From contig OX597818.1 in the NCBI GenBank assembly GCA_951406725.2, positions 16,926,001-16,990,000 of the forward strand: a stretch of 64,000 bases of DNA. The letters are read 5' to 3'. A program made the position numbers and the translations under genes. This document shows, piece after piece, positions 3,501 to 59,714 of this stretch; within the stretch, counting starts at the first letter, position 1, and every line of letters starts with the position of its first letter. The notes under the pieces are model-generated. The model did no database searches and was not told the DNA's origin. It saw nothing but the letters and a program-made list of their open reading frames with translations. Source of the DNA: Octopus vulgaris (Eukaryota).

Positions 3501-6500
3501 CAGTAATATTATAATGTAAAGGGTAAAGACCACTTTCGGTCATGAATGACCATGGGATTGCACCTAGAAAGTTACCGTCCAAGGCGCAAGTTCAGACTAG
3601 ATTGTTTATGGTACACCGGCAGTCACTTATGCATACCAGCCTCCTCTCTCCACATCATTGATGTTATCCAAAGGAAAGGCAAAGGCCGATACAGCTTGGC
3701 ATTCCTACAGTTGAGTGATCTGGAGTAACATGAAAATAAAGTATCTCATGATTACAGTGTAGGTTCTTAGAATGTGACTCTTGTGTGTATTGATAGAACA
3801 TGTGGATACTATAGTAACTGCTCATGTTGTTGGGTATGGGTTGATGGAATATAACTTTTCGAATATGGGTTAGTTGAGTGCTAGAATATGGGTTAATAGA
3901 ATGGTAGCTGATAACAGCTGATAACAGTCAAACCCCACACCAGTTGCCCAAGATGCTATGCAACAAGATTAAACCTGAACCCACGTGGTTACAAAGTCAA
4001 CTTCTTAATCGCACAGCCATCAGTTGTGCTATATATTTTGAGAGGAACATTTTAGGAGATATTTCAGATGACTGTCATTATGGAGAGTGACATACATTAT
4101 ATTATTTAAGAAACTTTAGTTTCATTGGTAATATTACAAAATAATTTACCAAATTTACACACAAAAAGACAATTTTGGTTTCTACACCCCATATAACCCC
4201 TCTTAACTATATATTTTGCAATTTTCAGAAAATTTTTATGAACTTTTGTACCATACACAGAAATTCATAGGATTATGAAAAAAAAATTTTTTTTATAAAC
4301 TAATAAATGAGGAAGGTATATGATGGTCGTGAATTGTGCTAAAATTAACAGCTAAATCATCTTCAAATAACACAAAAAATTTTGTCTTGCTTTTTTGTAT
4401 AATTGTGTGAATTCTCCATTTGTAGAACATAAATATGCAAAAGTTTTCTGAAAATTGCAAAAAATAAAAAAAAAGTTATTGGTGCTTAAACCAGAATTGC
4501 ACCAAAAGAAAAAATTGCTAAAAAAAAGTGTCAAGGGTCACTCATTGATGAAACCTACTCCAGACAAGGCTTAGGTCTTTTTCCTTTTGCTTTAAGAGGC
4601 TTTGTTTGTTGAATCTTTCTGAAGCACTTATTTGTTGTTAACCCTTTTATTCTTCTTTGTTTTGCAGAAGAGGCTGACTACCCTTCTATAGCAGTACGGG
4701 ATTTTATTGCTCACGTGGAAATGTTACATGCTGATAGTGACATTGGTTTCTCACAGCAATTTGATGTAAGTCACCCAGCTTTCCTACATTTTTTTGTCTT
4801 TGTTGGTAAAATTTTTCTAGCTATAAAACATCAGATTGGTCACCTTTTGCTTGTTGTACACCTAAAACAATATACTTTAGGACAGTTAGATGTATCCTTT
4901 GAGTAATATCTTCACTAGAATTCTTTAGTATGCAGGAGAGCTGGAGCATGAGTGATCTGAGGGAGTGAGTAGAGTTACAGGTATTAGCTGAGTAAAGGCG
5001 GCAAGCTGGCAGAAACGTTAGCACGCCAGGCGAAATGCGTAGCCGTATTTCGTCTGCCGTTACGTTCTGAGTTCAAATTCCACCGAGGTCAACTTTGCCT
5101 TTAATCCTTTCGGGGTTGATAAATTAAGTACCAGTTACACACTGAGGTTGATGTAATCGACTTAATCCGATTGTCTGTTCTTGTTTGTCTCCTTTGTGTT
5201 TAGCCCCTTGTGGGTAGTAAAGAAATAGGTATTAGCTGAGTATGAAGGTTAGGAAATTGTGCTGAGATGGAATTGATGCAAATGAATGATGAGCGCTGAG
5301 TGAAGAAGGCTCCTATGTTATCATTAGTGGAAGAAGAAAATATTGCTGAGGTCAGATCTCTCTCATAGAAGAGATGGTGAAGGCCAAGTGCTTGTAAGGA
5401 AAAATGTTTGGTAAAACAAAGTGAAAAAAATAATGACATTAACCTCCTTTAGCACTCAGATTACTCTGCCAAATCTAATGCTTATTTATTCACCTTGTTT
5501 TGATTTAATTATACATTGTCTTGTAGCTTCAGAATTTCGATGATATGACTGTTTATTTTTAGAATGACATTGTAGGGCAGATGTGTTAGAGGTCAGACCT
5601 TTGAACATAAATCCATAGAATATTTGGGCCAAATATGGCTGGTTTAAATATAAATTGATTCTGTATCAGAAAATATCAATAGCCTTCTTCTAAAATAATG
5701 TTGTTATAAAGGCGGAGGAGATAAGCTGGTGTTACATCTGATGAATTATAAATTTAACCTGGTTGGATATTTTACAGCTTTGGTGCAGTTTGATCTATAT
5801 ACATGTGGAAATATGTAATTAAGCATCTGGTTGTGTACATTTGTCTTTAATTTGTTTCAGTCATTAGACTGCAGCCATGCTGGAGCACTGCCTTGAAGAA
5901 TGGTTTGAATTGAGCTTTTTGAGGCAGTATTTTACAACACTGTTCTTTCTGATGCCAGCCCTTTTACCTACCTCTTATGCCATACAGGGATACAGATGGT
6001 GTACCTATTGCCAAAACCAGGATACCCATATACTGTATGGATTGATAGATTATGATTTATAGAGTATGACTTAAAGAGTAATGGTTGATAAAGTATGACT
6101 TCAGGAGTGTATTCCATTGACTCATAAAGCATGTATGAGTGCAGTCTAATGAAATTTTACACTACTAATTACATAAATTCCAATATATAAAATTAAGGAT
6201 TGGCTTAAAGATAACAATTTTACCACGGAAGCAGACATTGAAGAATAATGATAAATAAATGTGATACATCTGCTGATAGAGACCCATAGATAAGTTATGT
6301 ACTAAAAAAGAAATGAGCTTAGGAAATTGGGTGCAAATTAACATTAAAACTTGATCTAAGCTTGAAATTATATGTTAAATGGGTTAGCCATGCCAAAACT
6401 CTGTCTATTTGAATTTTGGCATTGTAAATAAATATATGCTGATATCATGTGCATAAGAAAAAAAGACTTCTGTGGTCTCTGGGCCAACCAAGTCTTTGTG

Positions 6501-9500
6501 AGTGGATTTGGTGGATGGAAGCTGAAAGAACCCCATTGTATGTATGCACGTGCATGTATGTAAGTGTATGTGTATTTGTGTCTCCTGTCTGGCCATGAGG
6601 ATACTGTGCTTGGAAGCACATAAGAGTTGACAACAGGAAGAGCATCTGGACATAGAAGATCTGCCTTAATAAACTTTGCCCAACCCATGCAGGCATGTGA
6701 AAGTGAACCTTAAAGCAATGATAATAATCAAATGTTTAGAAGCCAGTATATTACATATTTACAGAAAATCCACTATGGCTGAATCTAAACAAAAATTGTA
6801 TTCTTGTTTCTTCTACCGATTCAGTTGTGCCAAAAAAGCATTCCTGATCCCTGCTGAAGCTTTTTAACTATCCTCAACATGGCTTCTGTCCTGGAAGAAA
6901 CTCTCTGACATAGCTTCTTCAACATCAATCAAATTCTGAACCTGTCTCCTATCATGATCAAAGACTAGTCGTGCATACTTTGATTTTGCCAAAACCTTTG
7001 ACAAGGTGGACCATGGGATCTTATGCCACAAAGAAGAAAACACTGGTGCAACAATCTATAATTCACTGTAGAAATTTTAATGTTATAAAACCTCCTGTGA
7101 ATTGATAAAATATGATGGGAATTTCTTATTGAAAATATAGATTTCACAATAGACTCATGTGACTAGAACCATAGTATGTACTCTGAAGAGATGTGGAAAA
7201 TTATCACTTTTAGAAAAATGAAGTTAATCACTCCAAAGGTCCACTACCATCATCATCATCATCATCATACACCTGTTTTCTATACTGATATAGGTTTGAC
7301 AGATTGACAGCCCAAGTCAGTTCTTATTAGGCACCACTTGTAGAAGGATAGTAGGACCACACATTGCTCATGCATTCCATCTGCACCAAAACTGTAATTA
7401 GAAATACCATTTAGCTTAGCTCCAATTGTGTTTATTTATGCTATGGTGATATTTATACTGAGCAGTTTAATTTTTCTATGAATTTATTGTCTCATAATTT
7501 ATTTTCTCTTTTTTCTAGGACATAACTCAACGAACTCGGTGTGATCTAAAATCAGAGTTTTCTGCATTACAAGAGAACAAAATGAAGAATAGATATATCA
7601 ATATTGCTGCATGTAAGTAGCTGTAAACTATACCTTCTCCCTGATCTCTCTATACATAGTTATAAACTAATAGAACCTTTCTAGGCACTTATTTGATTTA
7701 GCATGGAATGTTAAACCCTGACCCCACTAACTTCTTTGTTATACTTTTTTTTATTTTAATCAGCTTTCAAATTTTTAGGTTTTGAACATCAGAATCTATA
7801 GGAAAATTTTTAAAGAATGCTTTTCTCCTGTATCAGAAACAAATTTGGGTTAGGGGATTTACAGCTGTAGTTCCTTATTTTTTTATATAAATATTTTTGT
7901 TTTGTCTTTCAAGTGCATAAACATATTTTGTTTTGCAGTTGTAATTACATTTCCATCCTTAATAACTTGATCGGGGGCAGTTTATCTATCTTTGCTTTGT
8001 GTTTCTTATACTTCATAAAATTGTGTCTGTCTTATAGCAGAAAATGCAAAATGTCATTTACATATCCAATATTGGACAATATGGGGGTAAGGGCCCAGAA
8101 TTTAATAGTTTCACTCTCTTCCATATTTTTTAATGCATTATATCTAGATCTTTATATCTCAGCAAATCAGCCTCTTCATCATCATCAACAATAGTGGAGG
8201 GTAAAAAAAGATAAAGTTACCTTCCCAAGCCATGCCAACTCATAAGGGATGGTTTCCTGATTTCCATGGTATATAAATTCTCCACCTGGATGGGATGCCA
8301 GTCCATCGCAGGATTACTCATTTTTGCCAGCTGAGTGGACTGGAGCAACATGAAATGAAGTATTTTGCTCAAGAATACAATACTTCGTCCAGTAATCAAA
8401 ACCACAATCTTATAATCACGAGTCCAACACGCCTAATCACTAAGCCAGTTTGGGGTTTACACCAGTGATTTTCAACCAGGGTCCATATGATCCCTGAGGG
8501 CCCATATAAGATTTTGTGGGGTCCTTGTCACAGAATAGTAAATTGGGGATCCACAAGTGTTTTAAGGGATCCTGAAAAAAAATTTTGCTTTAGATGTATG
8601 CATTGGTGTGTATTGCAAGAAACAGCTAGCTTTCTTTCTCTAACATTTTGCATAGTTCCAACTATGCAAGTTAATGTGTGAAAGCAAAATAGGAATTTTG
8701 ATAGAAATTTCTATAAAACTAGTTTTTAAACAGTGAATAGCTAGGGGTGGGGGTCCACCAGAATAAAATAGTAATCAAAGGGGTCCATAGATACAAAAAA
8801 AAAACAAATGGCTGAGAAACCCTGGTCTACACAATGCACTTTGTCACCTTCACCACCACTGCCTTCAGTATTACCACCATCATGGTTATTATTATCACCT
8901 CTGTAATTTAGGTAATGACAGTGGAACTGGATGTGGTTGTGCAATGTTAGACCAGCATTTAGGTACCATACCATTTGGAGTAGGTACTTTACTGTTCAGT
9001 ACTCAGAAGTTATCAGAACAAAAACTACCTTTCATATTTGTCTGAAGGTTTACAAATGAAAAAAAGAGAAAGCTCTTTCCTGAGACTCATAAGGCCAGTT
9101 TCTTGGATTCTGTAGTGTATATATTCCACCCAGGGTGGAATGCCAGTCTGTTGCAGAAATACTCATTTTTGACAGTTGAGTGTACATGAAGTGTTTTGCA
9201 CAAGAACAAATTGCATTTCCCAGTCCAGGAATCACAACTAACACCCCTGGGGTTAATCAATCATCAATACTCATTGCTTTTTTTTAAAACACCTTGTTCC
9301 TTGTTTAAAAAAAGACATCAACATCATTATTGCTTTTTTTTAATTGTGGTGGTTTTGAAGATCATGATGATGGTGGTTGTGGTAGTGATGATGTTGATGA
9401 TTATTATGACTGGCTTCCGTGCAGGTGGCATGCAAAAAGCACCAACCTGGCACCTGTGGCATGTAAAAAGCACCCACTACACTCACGGAGTGGTTGGCGT

Positions 9501-12352
9501 TAGGAAGGGCATCCAGCTGTAGAAATACTGCCAGATCAGACCGGAGCCTGGTGCAGCCTCCTAACCCTAAGCCAGATCCCAGTCAAACTGTCCAATCCAT
9601 GCTAATATGAAAACGGATGTTAAACGATGATGATGATGAAAGTGGTGAGCTGACAGAATCATTAGCATGCTGGGCAAAATGCTTAGTAGTATTTTGTCTG
9701 TCTGTATGCTCTGAGTTCAAGTTCCGCCGCAGTTGACTTTGCCCTTCATCCTTTTGGGGGTCGATAAATTAAGTACCAGTGAAACACTGGGGTCAGTGTA
9801 ATCAACTACTCTCTTTCTCATAAATTTCAGGCCTTGTGTCTTTAGTCGAAATAATTATGACTATTATTTAAAGTAGATATCTTCATAAAAGCTAAAAAGG
9901 GTTTAAATCAAAATGTTCCATCTTTAACAAAACCCCAAGCACTTCCTTCTTCAAGTATCACTCAAAATTGTTACCAACAACTATTAATTTTTATTTGTAT
10001 TCTTTCAGATGATCACACGAGATGTCAGTTGAAGCCAATAATGAGTAGGCAAAAACATTCTGATTACATAAATGCCAATTATGTTGATGTAAGTAGCATG
10101 ATATTTTAATTGCTCTTTAATGGTCATGATGTAAATACACATACACACACACACAACTTGCACTGGCTCTTATAACTGAGACATTCTAAACTTGAAGATA
10201 CTGGTTTATATAGCACCATTGATTACACATTTGTGGGCATAAGCCAACAATGGTGCCATTACTTGCTTTCATAATAGTGTATCACCTACCTTCTTACCAA
10301 AGAAGGACATATTAAAAATATAAGATGGTACTAAGTTTGCCTCCACAGGCCTGTGTTTCAGACATTGGAATGATGATGTTACAGCTAAACTATCGCTGCA
10401 CACAGGCACATGCGTGCGCATGCATGCACACTCACTCGCACACACAGACAAGTTGTCTTGTTGTTTCTATTGTATTACCTGTACTCTTCATGATACATAG
10501 AGTGCCTAGTAGTACCATTTGTTGTATGTTGTGTGGTTGTGTGTGTGGTAGTATATCAGTTATTGCTTTAAAAGCGGACTCATCATAAAAGATCAAGAGG
10601 AAGACCTCACTTTATGTACATCAACAAGCAGATACCAGTATGCCTGACTGGATGGATGAGTATGTCTCTCCTCCAGGCTGAGGGTTGGTGGGGGCTCAGA
10701 CATAACCCATCTCACTTCACCACACACCATGGTCTTGTTGCTGCTGTGCACTCCACCAGGATCCTATCTGTCCAGTCCTTGATATTTGCAAACCTGTTTT
10801 TTATCTAACTCCTGAGAATGAGTTTATGGCTTTTAGGCCCTGATAACTTGGCCAAAATATTACAGATTTTCCCCTTCTGACTACCATCACCAACTATTGT
10901 TCTTATTGTGTCATACTATACTAATCAAAAAGAGGATTGTGCTACAGTTGCTCGCAGTCCTTAAATAGCTTTGATAAGTTTATATACTAAGCTACAATAA
11001 CCTCCATAACAATTATTCTTTTGAACCTGAACTCACTTCATCTATTGTTCCTTGTTGTAAGTGACCCTCCTTTGTTGTTATTGGTCAACAATGCTACAAT
11101 TCTGTTCCTGCCTCCTCCTGGACTGAATTGTTCATTGTACGAGCAATCCACTAGATCCAAGTACTCATCTTGTACAAGACACTTAGATCATCATCAGTTA
11201 ATGTTCCTATTCCATACTGGCATGGGTTGATAGGATCTGATGAGTTCAAGGACTGCATCATGATACAATGTCTGCTTTGGCATGATTTCTACAGCTGGAT
11301 GCCCTTCCTCATGCCAACCACTTTACTGCTTCTAGCACTATTGAGATTGCCATGCAACTTGCAAGACAACAAACGGCTTGGGAAGTAGGAGTTCAGCTTT
11401 ACACTGGGATTGAGTTAGAAAATTTGCGTGCTGTAATGAACAGTTGTGCTTACTGGAGATCACTAGGAAGTATTTGAGTTCACTCATGTATTTATGCCCA
11501 CTTAAACATGGACCTTTTATTGAAGAAGTTATGTCAGAGAGTTTCTTCCATGTTGAGGATTGCTAAAAAGCTTCAGCAGGAACAAGGAATGCTTTTTTGG
11601 TACAACTGAATAAGTAGAAGAAACAAGAATATAATTTTAATTCAGACTCAGCCCTAACCATTTTAAAAGCTGGAAAAGTGGATTTTCCTATAAATATGTA
11701 ATATACTGGCTTCTAAACATTTGATTATTATCATTGCTTTAAGGTTCACTTTTCCATGCCTGCATGGGTTGGGCAGAGTTTATTGAGGCTGATTTTCTAT
11801 GTCCAGATGCTCTTCCTGTTGCCAACTCTTATGTGCTTCCAGTCACAGTATTTCCTCATGGCCTAACAAAAGACACAAATACATATACACTTACATACAT
11901 GCACATGCATACATACAATGGGGTTCTTTCAGCTTCCATCCACCAAATCCATTCACAAAGATTTGGTTGGCCCAGAGACCACAGAAGTCTTTTTTTCTTA
12001 TGCACATGATGCTGTCATCATATATTTATTTACAATGTCAATATTTAAATAGACTGAATTTTGACATGGCCAACCCATCTTACAAACTTTATTGAGGTAG
12101 ATACCTTGAGTAAAACTCTCATCATGGCTTTTTGATGTAAAATGCAATCTTGTTTATATCGCTAGTGTGGACATAAATCCCTGCCACCTCCAGCACTGAG
12201 ATCACCTGATCATGTGATTTCAACCTTTCTTGGTTTTGTCAATGATGGATGCTCAATCATTAGAGATAGCAGTAATTCATCTCCCCACCAGCAATATATA
12301 GAAAATCAGCACCAAAACGGGAACTGGTGTCGCAATTAGCTAGTGAGCTTGT

Positions 12353-12396
<44 letters not shown>

Positions 12397-13256
12397 TGAT
12401 GGAAGCAGTATTAATACTGAGGTAATATTTATACCCACTGAAATGTAGATGTTCTGTTAGAACAAGCTATACTGTGGTAGTTACCATGAGAGAAACTCTC
12501 ATATTGGCTTTTGGTGCAAAATTCACTCTTGTTTATATCGCTGTAAGGAGGAGGCAGAAGAGGAGAAGTGTATGTGTAAAACTCTTAGTCATGTGCTGTT
12601 TGTCTGCATCATTTTTAAAACCATTCCCATGGAGATCGTTTCTGTTTTCAGTTCTTACTTTCTGGTTATGTTCATTTCCAAATCTTTATATTTGAATTGT
12701 TTCTTCCTTTCTTTTAGAATTATTATTATTTCTTTGTCTCTGTTGCAGGGCTATAACAAGGCACGTGCCTACATTGCTACCCAGGGGCCATTACCACAAA
12801 CAGTCGATGACTTTTGGCGTATGGTCTGGGAACAAAACACTGCTGTGATTGTTATGATAACAAACTTAATGGAACGTGGAAGGGTAAGAATCTTTGATGT
12901 CCTTGCTAAAATACATACACTTTTCATGAGTATTGAGTCCTTATTTTCTCTGGTAAATTCAGTGTGTTATCCTTACATGTTATAGTGTGTGAGGAATTGG
13001 TTTTGTTGTGTTTTTACATGAATTTATCCTGTATTTGTTTGTCAGTCTTCTACTCTCAAATTTCCTTTTTTTCTCTGTATCTTACAAAATCAGTGAGTGA
13101 GTCCTCTTTGTGTGAGTGTTTGTATGTAGATATGTGTGTAGACCGACCACTATTTTCTTAATTGATTTTGCTTTTTTTTTTCCCTTCCTCAAGTTACTTT
13201 CAAATTCTTCAAGTGACTTAGTGTATTTTTTTAAGTATATATTTCCTAATTAATCA

Positions 13257-13289
<33 letters not shown>

Positions 13290-14982
13290 TCTCATTTACA
13301 GAGGAAATGTGACCAGTATTGGCCGAATGAAGGGACAGAGGACTATGGTGTGATGTCAGTGAGGTTACTGAGTACATTTGCACGTGCTCACTACACAGTC
13401 AGAATATTTTCCCTCAGGAATACAAAGAAAAGAAAGGTACCTTATTGATCACATGCCTGTCTCACAGAACCATAGCAGTAAAGTGCATTTTCTACACAGC
13501 TCAACTCTCTTGTGTACCTTCAACTCTTTAACTACCCCTAATTCACTAGCTGAAATCCAGTTCTATACCTGCCCCAAATCCTACCTTGCACCATAATCTA
13601 CATAAGCATAAATTCCTCAAGTCATTATTACCCCCAACTCCCCACTGCTGCTCCCACTCGCCACTACCCCCCCCCAACTCCCCACTACCCCCACTTCTAC
13701 TGCCTCCAACTCCCCACTACTCCCACTCCCCACCGCCCCCAACTCCACATCGACCCTCAAACTACTCCATCTACCCCCTAGTCTCCACCTACCCCTGGCT
13801 CTTCACCTATGCTCGGGTTTTCTACTGACTTCTTTCAACTCTAACATACCAGAACTTGCAACATAACTTCAACTTTATACCTACCAATCAACTCCTTACC
13901 TTCCCTCCACTCTCTATATAGTGTCTACATTGCCCTAATTCTCTATATACACCCAACTCATTACATGTCCAACAACTCTTCCAAGAAAATCCACAATTCT
14001 TTCATGTACAAGAATTACACTTAATAGATATTTTCCTCACTCATGACATGCAATAAAGTCACTCATATATACAATATACATTTAAGTTTATCGAAAGACA
14101 TAACATTGTATCATATACTAAGGTCACGCACTCTATAGCTTTGTCATATATACATTGTGTGTAACATACTACTCAGTAGTTGTTATACTACGCCTATTCT
14201 TTAGCACAATACCCAAAGTGTTAACTCATTAAAAACAGCTGCAAGGTATGCTTACCAAATACTGTATTAAGTATATAAATGCACAAATGATAGTATTTGG
14301 TTTCAAGGACTGTAATATGTAGTGCTTTGCTGTACTTAAAAAGCCCCACCCACACAACAGAACTGAGATCCTAAAACCAAGGTGCCACATAAAATGCACC
14401 TGTGATGGTGCCATATAAAAAACAGCCAGTACAGTGTGTGCAGTGGTTGGCATTAGAAAAGGCAACCAGCTGTAGAAATTAAGCCAAAACAGCCTTGTGA
14501 ATTCCTGTCAAGCCATCCAACCCATTCCAGCATGGAAAACGGGTGTTAAACGCTGATGATTATGATGAAATGAATCTTTAAAAACTTATGGTGTTTATTT
14601 TTGATATGTCTGTGTACTGTTTGTTGATCCTCATAATACAGCAATATATATATATATAGATGTTGTAATTCTTTTCCTTGATTTGGCCTATTAAATGCAA
14701 CATATATCTTTTAGTATATAGATTTATAAGCTTCTTTTTCAATAGTTAAGGTAATGAAAAAATTCCCTAAGGTACATTGATTTGACTAATCACAGCTGGT
14801 CTTGATCACGATTCTTGCCAGGTTCTGACTCTGAATTCATTTTAGTGATCAATATTTATAGATTATTTTTAAATTACAAAATAATAATAAACAGGCATAA
14901 AATAAAGATAAAATAGAGCTAGGCTCCTGACTAAATAGGGATGCAGGCCAGATGTCTTTCATGGAACATATGTTTGATGTTG

Positions 14983-58564: not shown

Positions 58565-58701
58565 TTACAAGGAAATGTAATTTTTTATATTTTTACAATA
58601 TTTCATAACCAAACTTTAATATTTAACTCTCATCTTATTTAAATATCCTTGAAACTATGTCAAAGATACAAAATAAAATATGTTCTTAAATTATGAAAAA
58701 T

Positions 58702-59092
58702 GTGCAGGAGTGGCTGTGTGGTAAGTAGCTTGCTTCCCAACCACATGGTCCCGAGTTCATTCCCACTGCATGACACCTTGGGCAAGTGTCTTCTACTATA
58801 GCCTTGGGCCAACCAAAGCCTTGTGAGTGGATTTGGTAGACGGAAACTGAAAGAAGCCTGTCGTATATATGTATGTGAGTGTGTCTGTGTTTGTCCCCCC
58901 GCCCAATGTCGCTTGACATCCAATAGTGGTGTGTTTACGTCCCTATAACTTAGCGGTTCGGCAAAAGAGACGAATAGAATAAGTACTAAGCTTCCAAAGA
59001 ATAAGTCCTGGGGTCGATTTGCTCGACTAAAGGCGGTGCTCCAGCATGGCCACAGTCAAATGACTGAAACAAGTAAAAGGGAGTAAAGAGTA
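58702..59092 (+). mobile_element. Family B SINE, full length
   Basis: Reverse-complement match to 51942-52340. Confidence 0.85.
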
Positions 59093-59714
59093 CTTCTAGT
59101 GGTGCATACAGTGATTGTGTGGTGGTTAAAATGTTTTAACAGACAAAACATCAGACCTACCTGACATTTGACATATCATTTGGAACTGGTATATAGTGAA
59201 CCCAGGGTTTGAGAGAAGGGTAAAAGAACTCCAGCCAATCACTGCCAACATGGAAGACTAAAGAGTCACAGATGAAAAGGTGCTTTAAGCGAAAACTGGC
59301 AGCCACACCTCGGAAGTTGAATAAATATCTGTTGGAATTAGAAAAGAATATAAATTTACCTTCAGTGCAAGCATGAGTGAGTGGTTAAGAATCTAGCTAT
59401 GCATATGGGGTTTTGAGTTCAACCTTACTGAGCAGCAAACTTTGTCAAATGTACTCTACAATAGTTCCAGAACAACCAATGTCTTCAAAGTGTGATAGCA
59501 TGTGTGTTTGTGCCACACACCAATCATCAATCTGTGTCGATTCGTTTAACCTTTACCTTTCTATATTCCTTTTAACATGTACTGCCTTTGTTTTAACTCA
59601 TTTTTAAAATAATGAAGAATTTAGTAAAACTTCCTCATAATTAAGCTAGGGTCTGGAACAATTTAGCATAAAACTTTGATGGAAGATTATAATTTTAAAA
59701 AAAAAAAATTTTTT

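What the first reader, a model, noticed from the sequence alone, without database searches (positions are those of the whole stretch)
6373..12083. ~550-bp inverted duplication brackets exons 4-5: an in-frame cassette and a potential stop-free circRNA
Seen: 6373-6922 and 11520-12083 are reverse complements (roughly 85% identical by eye). They share non-SINE sequence and chimeric SINE junctions, so they look like a local inverted duplication, not two independent SINE insertions. They enclose exactly two exons, 94+80 = 174 nt, entering and leaving in phase 0. Known: complementary flanking introns promote back-splicing and exon skipping and are ADAR substrates, and coleoids edit RNA heavily. Inference: (i) skipping would delete 58 aa including the KNRY pTyr-recognition loop and DYINAN, giving a catalytically crippled receptor; (ii) the back-spliced 174-nt circle would have an endless frame with two Met codons (DITQRT...KMKNRY...ANYVD repeating); (iii) A-to-I editing of the duplex could tune the choice.
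Basis: partly seen in the sequence, partly recalled or inferred. Interest (0 to 1): 0.8.

Follow-up and report, generated by a model that had tools for sequence, protein, structure and literature searches.

The report
Inverted intron copy in octopus phosphatase
A 565-base piece of one intron of an octopus receptor-phosphatase gene was copied backwards into a nearby intron, likely as a DNA-repair scar; the pair could make two exons loop out, but normal splicing is what was seen, so it is probably ordinary.

Summary
6373-6922 and 11520-12084 are inverted copies (494/577 identical); full-length copies were found at these two places only. They flank exons 7519-7612 and 10009-10088 (174 nt) of a PTP99A-like gene. 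The direction of copying is shown. The left arm is the donor: it ends inside a decayed LINE-like relic that continues only there. The right arm is the insert: it splits an older repeat, with 2-3 nt of microhomology at each junction and about 3 nt lost. That is the signature of a microhomology-templated insertion. The functional story is weak. In-frame, stop-free blocks are the base rate in this gene (48 of 105 blocks; 8 of 13 two-exon blocks are in frame). Equally strong inverted pairs occur about 7 times per Mb. A stronger chance pair of transposon copies brackets another in-frame cassette of the same gene. The arms show no G-U bias (14 vs 17). One run showing the gene's junctions gave all three normal ones; no skip or back-splice was among the 15 of 384 joints shown, but contigs drop minor forms. 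A candidate A-to-G recoding (Met to Val) at 10041 turned up. Verdict: real, likely neutral; a low-level circle is untested.

The parts
6373..6922 (+). Left arm, the donor copy, in the intron before exon 7519; ends 596 nt before the 3' splice site
11520..12084 (-). Right arm, the inserted inverted copy (565 nt), in the intron after exon 10088; starts 1431 nt after the 5' splice site
6477..6728 (.).
   Evidence: (hits to arm positions ~95-358, 75-84%)
6875..7047 (+). Decayed LINE-like reverse-transcriptase relic; runs through the left arm's end at 6922 and is cut off in the right arm, which also lacks 12 nt of it
   Evidence: tblastx E 6.6e-17 to another relic; the LINE label is recalled from the motifs, and a Pfam scan of a 30-aa piece was blank
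11489..11519 (+). Left piece of the dispersed repeat split by the right arm
   Evidence: 17 of 24 other copies align to this piece up to the junction
12085..12330 (+). Right piece of the same dispersed repeat (1287 candidates in the genome, about 80% identity)
4668..4765 (+). PTP99A-like exon upstream of the cassette
   Evidence: joint 4765>7519
7519..7612 (+). First enclosed exon (94 nt), carries the KNRY motif of phosphatase domain 1
10009..10088 (+). Second enclosed exon (80 nt), carries DYINAN
12749..12883 (+). Exon downstream of the cassette
10041..10041 (+). A read as G in the spliced contig of run X1: candidate A-to-I recoding, Met to Val; a SNP is not excluded
   Evidence: table 3 (one contig, depth 186.1 of 186.1)

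Best explanation
The right arm is a 565-bp inverted copy of intron DNA 4.6 kb upstream that splits an older repeat, likely pasted in by microhomology-mediated template switching during DNA repair, and it is likely a neutral scar that would at most yield by-product amounts of circular or skipped RNA. Shown: two full-length copies; donor and insert; about 3 nt lost and 2-3 nt of microhomology at the junctions; normal splicing through both enclosed exons. Inferred: a broken end in the intron after exon 10088 annealed to nearby DNA (or nascent RNA), copied 565 nt backwards and rejoined its own site; the arms have since drifted apart (K2P 0.087) without selection for pairing. Predicted, untested: the arms can pair in the pre-mRNA; splicing of the intervening introns and ADAR melting would keep back-splicing low.
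For: Two full-length copies among the matches; both flanks match only the arms. The LINE-like relic continues past 6922 only in the left arm. The right arm interrupts a dispersed repeat: 17 of 24 other copies align to the left flank up to the junction, and 14 of those 17 have exactly 8 bases where the arm sits. Among 15 hand-picked copies with that offset (those 14 plus L151), 12 match the arm's first 2-3 bases and 12 its last 3. Substitutions between the arms: 14 give G-U and 17 give A-C in the sense duplex (p=0.72), and divergence does not differ between segments (p=0.45). Base rates: 49 of 105 exon blocks are frame-preserving and 48 give a stop-free circle with Met; 7 inverted pairs of 680 bits or more within 5 kb lie in 1.0 Mb of unselected sequence. 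A chance pair of transposon copies upstream in the same gene is stronger (1159 bits) and also brackets an in-frame 399-nt cassette. Run X1 has the three normal joints at depth 186-206. All 16 of 21 cluster proteins that span the region keep the 58 aa. Octopus circRNAs are few (296) and low (PMC9699675, passages).
Against: It is by far the strongest inverted intron pair in the window's part of the gene (680 vs 155 bits), and only 1.2% of sampled bases lie between arms this strong and this close. A duplex with a 106-nt unbroken stretch is the kind that promotes both back-splicing and skipping (PMC8330042, abstract). True two-copy local inverted duplications may be rarer than the pair count suggests: of 9 background candidates I tested 4; 1 was two-copy and 3 were transposons. 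The G-U test has only 31 transitions. The RNA test rests on contigs of one run that cannot show minor forms. Microhomologies of 2-3 nt can be chance.
Confidence: 0.72

Rival explanations
1. Same origin, but the arms do drive an appreciable 174-nt circRNA and/or skipped mRNA in some tissue, as an unselected by-product.
For: Strongest complementary pair in this part of the gene, strong duplex, canonical splice sites. Complementary matches promote both events in C. elegans (PMC8330042, abstract). Contigs could hide such forms.
Against: The assembled path in X1 runs through both exons into the next. The arms lie 596 and 1431 nt from the splice sites. Octopus circRNAs are reported as low and few.
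Confidence: 0.17
2. An adaptive switch: the duplex, tuned by ADAR, controls a phosphatase-dead receptor isoform and a rolling-circle-translated circRNA.
For: The frame is kept and the circle has no stop. Endless-frame circRNAs exist (circEGFR, circTau 12-10; PMC11724312, passages).
Against: The frame property is the base rate here. No G-U bias. None of the 16 proteins that span the region lacks the cassette. The 58 aa include core motifs, so the skipped domain would more likely misfold than act as a tuned decoy (inference from recalled PTP structure). One of the circle's two Met codons reads as Val in X1.
Confidence: 0.04
3. The long duplex works as an editing inducer that recruits ADAR and raises A-to-I recoding at 10041 (Met to Val) in the enclosed exon.
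For: A>G at 10041 is the assembled letter in X1, whose intronic records 1-7 show 0 differences over 3597 letters, so a SNP is less likely. The local fold around the site is no better than shuffles (z -0.36 and 0.08), so a local hairpin does not explain it.
Against: One contig of one run, with no matched DNA. The site is about 1.5 and 3.1 kb from the arms and does not pair with them. Recoding is widespread in coleoids without such arms (PMC9068888, passages). The residue lies in a variable loop where Val occurs in homologues.
Confidence: 0.05
4. The arms are two chance copies of a composite repeat, or the terminal inverted repeats of a DNA transposon.
For: Three of four tested background pairs were transposon copies. 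The core of the arm is high-copy.
Against: No third full-length copy; the flanks match only each other. One arm is continuous with its surroundings and the other interrupts a repeat, which terminal repeats of one element would not show.
Confidence: 0.02

Closest known systems
Microhomology-mediated templated insertions (MMB-TI / MMBIR; PMC8421209, abstract and passages)
   Same: Insert copied from a nearby template, short microhomology at both junctions, return to the original site, kept as a germline variant that does not break the gene.
   Different: The template is 4.6 kb away and the insert 565 nt, whereas that study searched for templates within 100 bp. This event is old (K2P 0.087 between arms), so the repair pathway cannot be named.
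Reverse complementary matches flanking circRNA exons (C. elegans zip-2, PMC8330042 abstract; inverted Alu pairs, recalled)
   Same: Complementary sequence in the introns on both sides of a two-exon block with canonical splice sites.
   Different: Here the match came from one local duplication. No back-splice or skip product is shown; the zip-2 match is conserved across species, and conservation was not testable here.
Endless-frame circRNAs (circEGFR, circTau 12-10; PMC11724312 passages)
   Same: Length divisible by three, no stop, frame of the host protein.
   Different: Those have detected circles and translation evidence. Here the circle is only predicted, and 48 of 105 exon blocks of this gene share the property.
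PTP99A / PTPRG-type receptor tyrosine phosphatase
   Same: The spliced window exons give a protein identical to the matching part of the annotated Octopus vulgaris PTP99A-like protein P0126; P0126 is 47% identical to chimpanzee PTPRG over 679 aa.
   Different: Nothing unusual in the protein; no isoform lacking the cassette among 16 spanning proteins.

Membership tests
Microhomology-mediated templated insertion | Insert has a nearby genomic template | tested here: met
   donor 4.6 kb upstream, continuous with its flank
Microhomology-mediated templated insertion | Microhomology at both junctions, small loss at the target | tested here: met
   2 nt left (up to 4 against the repeat's usual letters), 3 nt right, about 3 nt lost; short enough that chance is possible
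Microhomology-mediated templated insertion | Made by replication-based template switching rather than another repair route | not testable with these tools
   old event; a DNA template and a nascent-RNA template cannot be told apart
Retroposed copy (target-primed reverse transcription) | Target-site duplication and poly(A) end | tested here: not met
   an 8-mer lies at both junctions (168 of 20000 random pairs), but the two copies map to different parts of the split repeat; no poly(A) at either end
DNA transposon with terminal inverted repeats | Full-length arms are multi-copy and both are inserted ends | tested here: not met
RCM-driven exonic circRNA | Complementary sequence in both flanking introns and canonical splice sites | tested here: met
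RCM-driven exonic circRNA | Back-splice junction present in RNA | tested here: inconclusive
   not among the 15 of 384 joints shown; contigs drop minor forms
RCM-driven exonic circRNA | RNase R resistance; loss when an arm is deleted | not testable with these tools
   needs bench work
Endless-frame (rolling-circle) circRNA | Length divisible by three with no stop | tested here: met
   true of 48 of 105 blocks of this gene
Endless-frame (rolling-circle) circRNA | Ribosome loading or a junction-spanning peptide | not testable with these tools
   no ribosome profiling or proteomics available
ADAR hyper-edited intronic duplex | Clusters of A-to-G in both arms | tested here: inconclusive
   contigs of depth 2-4 over all of the left arm and 237 nt of the right arm show 0 differences, but they may be DNA and singly edited reads are dropped; 40 of 123 differences were shown

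The most novel reading that the evidence does not exclude
One DNA-repair scar created, in a single step, a long intronic duplex that now makes two catalytic-domain exons of an octopus receptor phosphatase circularise or skip at a regulated level, with ADAR setting the balance and recoding a Met in the same exon: a lineage-specific RNA switch born from a templated insertion whose donor, target and junctions can all be read.
Probability: 0.05. Interest if true: 0.65.

Novelty: new member of a known kind. Interest (0 to 1): 0.2.

Why it matters
As a neutral scar it matters little, but it is a clean example: the donor, the target and both junctions are readable, which shows that local templated insertions, and not only transposon pairs, create long complementary intron matches in octopus. 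If back-splice or skip reads turned up, it would be a natural test of whether a single new duplex is enough to make a circRNA in an animal with very high ADAR activity. The candidate Met-to-Val recoding in the phosphatase domain is cheap to check.

Tried and rejected
Run search: no RNA holder listed on record; the runs were guessed to be RNA. Of the four laid, only X1 showed exon junctions; X2-X4 had depth 0 in the bin of exon 7519 and were mostly repeat-derived, so they say nothing on splicing. The tables were cut (15 of 384 joints, 40 of 123 differences, 32 of 50,674 pieces), partly because my low likeness setting (88) let in other repeat copies. No skip or back-splice was shown, which is not evidence of absence. 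Target-site duplication: the flanking 8-mer looked significant but was rejected once the split repeat was aligned. The second inverted pair at 51934-52355/58691-59095 is two copies of a high-copy repeat, each closer to distant copies than to the other. One search's count (56 of 91 blocks) used a wrong exon start and was replaced. A local hairpin for site 10041 was not supported. No list of octopus circRNAs was found: supplementary PDF passages, table zip without hits, data zip unreadable. No PTP99A editing entry in the readable supplements of PMC8382921, PMC4384741 or PMC8891338; those files are short and may hold no site tables, and the spreadsheet of PMC9068888 was too large to read, so unseen tables may list the site or the circle. 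Literature searches: Ptp99A + circRNA, 0 papers; cephalopod + circular RNA + back-splic, 4 papers, 2 listed. The event could not be dated: the paper sought for a substitution rate is not held. No related octopus genome is available here. The earlier-findings look-up was empty. The split repeat could not be classed (7 of 24 loci had any inverted partner).
Full report
Observation. The window's self-alignment shows 6373-6922 matching the reverse complement of 11520-12084 over 577 columns at 85.6%. In the 2.8-Gb genome G000 (the window is C5:16926001-16990000) a search with the whole arm gave 42 matches. Only the two arms are full length; the rest cover arm positions ~95-358 at 75-84% (40 of 2947 candidates scored). 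Each flank matched only the two arms. The search skips common words, so this is strong support for two copies, not proof. Contigs of other samples match each arm exactly over 161-237 nt (X2 on the left arm, X3 on the right), so both arm sequences exist outside this assembly.

Host gene. The exon at 12749-12883 is identical to that of an Argonauta PTP99A-like protein. The spliced exons from 4667 on give a protein identical to the matching part of the annotated Octopus vulgaris PTP99A-like protein P0126. At least eight coding segments lie upstream of the window. The arms enclose exons 7519-7612 and 10009-10088: 174 nt, phase 0 at both ends, 58 aa holding the KNRY and DYINAN motifs of phosphatase domain 1. 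The circle frame is open, with two Met.

Origin. The left arm's 3' end lies inside a decayed reading frame with LINE reverse-transcriptase-like motifs (6875-7047; tblastx E 6.6e-17 to another relic in the sampled DNA; the LINE label is recalled, and Pfam on a 30-aa piece was blank). The relic continues past 6922 only at the left arm; the right arm cuts it off and lacks 12 nt of it. The right arm, in turn, sits inside a dispersed repeat (1287 candidates). Of 24 other copies, 17 align to the left flank up to the junction, and 14 of those have exactly 8 bases where the 565-nt arm now lies. In 15 hand-picked copies with that offset (the 14 plus L151), 12 match the arm's first 2-3 bases and 12 match its last 3. 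So the left arm is the donor and the right arm the insert, with about 3 nt lost and 2-3 nt of microhomology per junction. An 8-mer at both junctions first looked like a target-site duplication (168 of 20000 random pairs), but its two copies map to different parts of the split repeat. This anatomy fits microhomology-mediated templated insertion (PMC8421209, abstract and passages). The pathway, and whether the template was DNA or nascent RNA, is inferred and cannot be tested here.

Is the arrangement more than chance? Within the window's part of the gene the pair stands out: 680 bits against 155 for the next. It could form a duplex with 106 nt paired without a break, and only 1.2% of sampled bases lie between arms this strong within 5 kb. 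Against: ten 100-kb blocks taken at round coordinates hold 7 such pairs, and 43 pairs of 300 bits or more within 10 kb, enclosing 11% of the bases. Of 9 background pairs that looked locally specific I tested 4: one was a true two-copy local inverted duplication and three were transposon copies. Upstream in the same gene, two copies of a high-copy element form a stronger pair (840 columns, 90.5%, 1159 bits, 9.1 kb apart) around three exons of 96+176+127 = 399 nt, also in frame. Most introns of this gene are phase 0, so 49 of 105 internal exon blocks keep the frame, 48 give a stop-free circle with Met, and 8 of 13 two-exon blocks are in frame. A stop-free circle follows automatically from any in-frame coding block. 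The 44 substitutions between the arms show no preference for G-U over A-C (14 vs 17, p=0.72) and no difference between segments (p=0.45); K2P is 0.087. The G-U test is small.

RNA. Four runs were laid on 4400-13500, all as assembled contigs and all only guessed to be RNA. X1 shows GT..AG joints 4765>7519, 7612>10009 and 10088>12749 at depth 186-206, so both enclosed exons are in the assembled path. No skip or back-splice is among the 15 of 384 joints shown; contigs drop minor forms, so this is inconclusive. Contigs of depth 2-4 cover the whole left arm and 237 nt of the right arm with no differences; they may be DNA, and singly edited reads would be lost, so this too is inconclusive. All 16 of 21 cluster proteins that span the region keep the 58 aa. 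In O. vulgaris, circRNAs are reported as low, with 296 called (PMC9699675, main-text and supplementary passages); I could not see the list.

Side finding. The spliced X1 contig reads G at 10041, turning a Met codon into Val. X1's intronic records 1-7 match the genome over 3597 letters without a difference, which favours A-to-I editing over a SNP, but there is no matched DNA. The site is in a variable loop where Val occurs in homologues, has no stable local fold, and removes one of the circle's two Met codons. Recoding is common in coleoid neural tissue (PMC9068888, passages). A link to the arms is not shown.

Comparison and verdict. It works like a reverse complementary match of the kind that promotes back-splicing and skipping (PMC8330042, abstract), but membership among circRNA loci is untested: no junction has been seen. 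Endless-frame circles are known (PMC11724312, passages), and most circRNAs are argued to be splicing noise (10.1101/2023.11.08.566217, abstract). A search for Ptp99A with circRNA found no paper. Best reading: a neutral templated inverted insertion, 0.72; an appreciable by-product circle or skip, 0.17; an editing inducer, 0.05; an adaptive switch, 0.04; chance repeats or a transposon, 0.02. It is a new member of a known kind; interest 0.2.

Noticed in passing
window:10041: A read as G in the spliced contig of run X1 (depth 186.1 of 186.1): candidate A-to-I recoding Met to Val in phosphatase domain 1; a SNP is not excluded.
   Followed up: partly
G000:C5:16889830-16890649 and 16899740-16900579 (L021, L022): Inverted pair of high-copy element copies (90.5%, 1159 bits) around three extracellular-domain exons of the same gene, 399 nt, in frame; the local partner is the top hit among 39 others scored, by a small margin.
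   Followed up: partly
window:19346-19693: Hairpin inside one intron: 98-nt arms, 95% complementary, 152-nt loop, partly repeat-derived; a likely ADAR substrate.
   Followed up: no
window:47388-47977: Perfect tandem array with a 147-bp unit, about four copies, 100% identical; recent duplication or assembly feature.
   Followed up: no
window:51934-52355 and 58691-59095: Second inverted pair (82%), downstream of the gene's last coding exon; two independent copies of a high-copy repeat.
   Followed up: yes
G000:C13:40022797-40023556 and 40023820-40024558 (L107): Another two-copy local inverted duplication, 760 bp, 83%, 264 bp apart.
   Followed up: partly
G000:C5 about 16905090-16905155 (L022): Short alternative exon just before the transmembrane exon, present in isoform X1 of O. 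sinensis (P0123) and absent from P0126.
   Followed up: no
G000:C2:90053760-90056841 (L050): High-copy element with 576-bp terminal inverted repeats about 1.9 kb apart; other copies also occur as inverted pairs.
   Followed up: no
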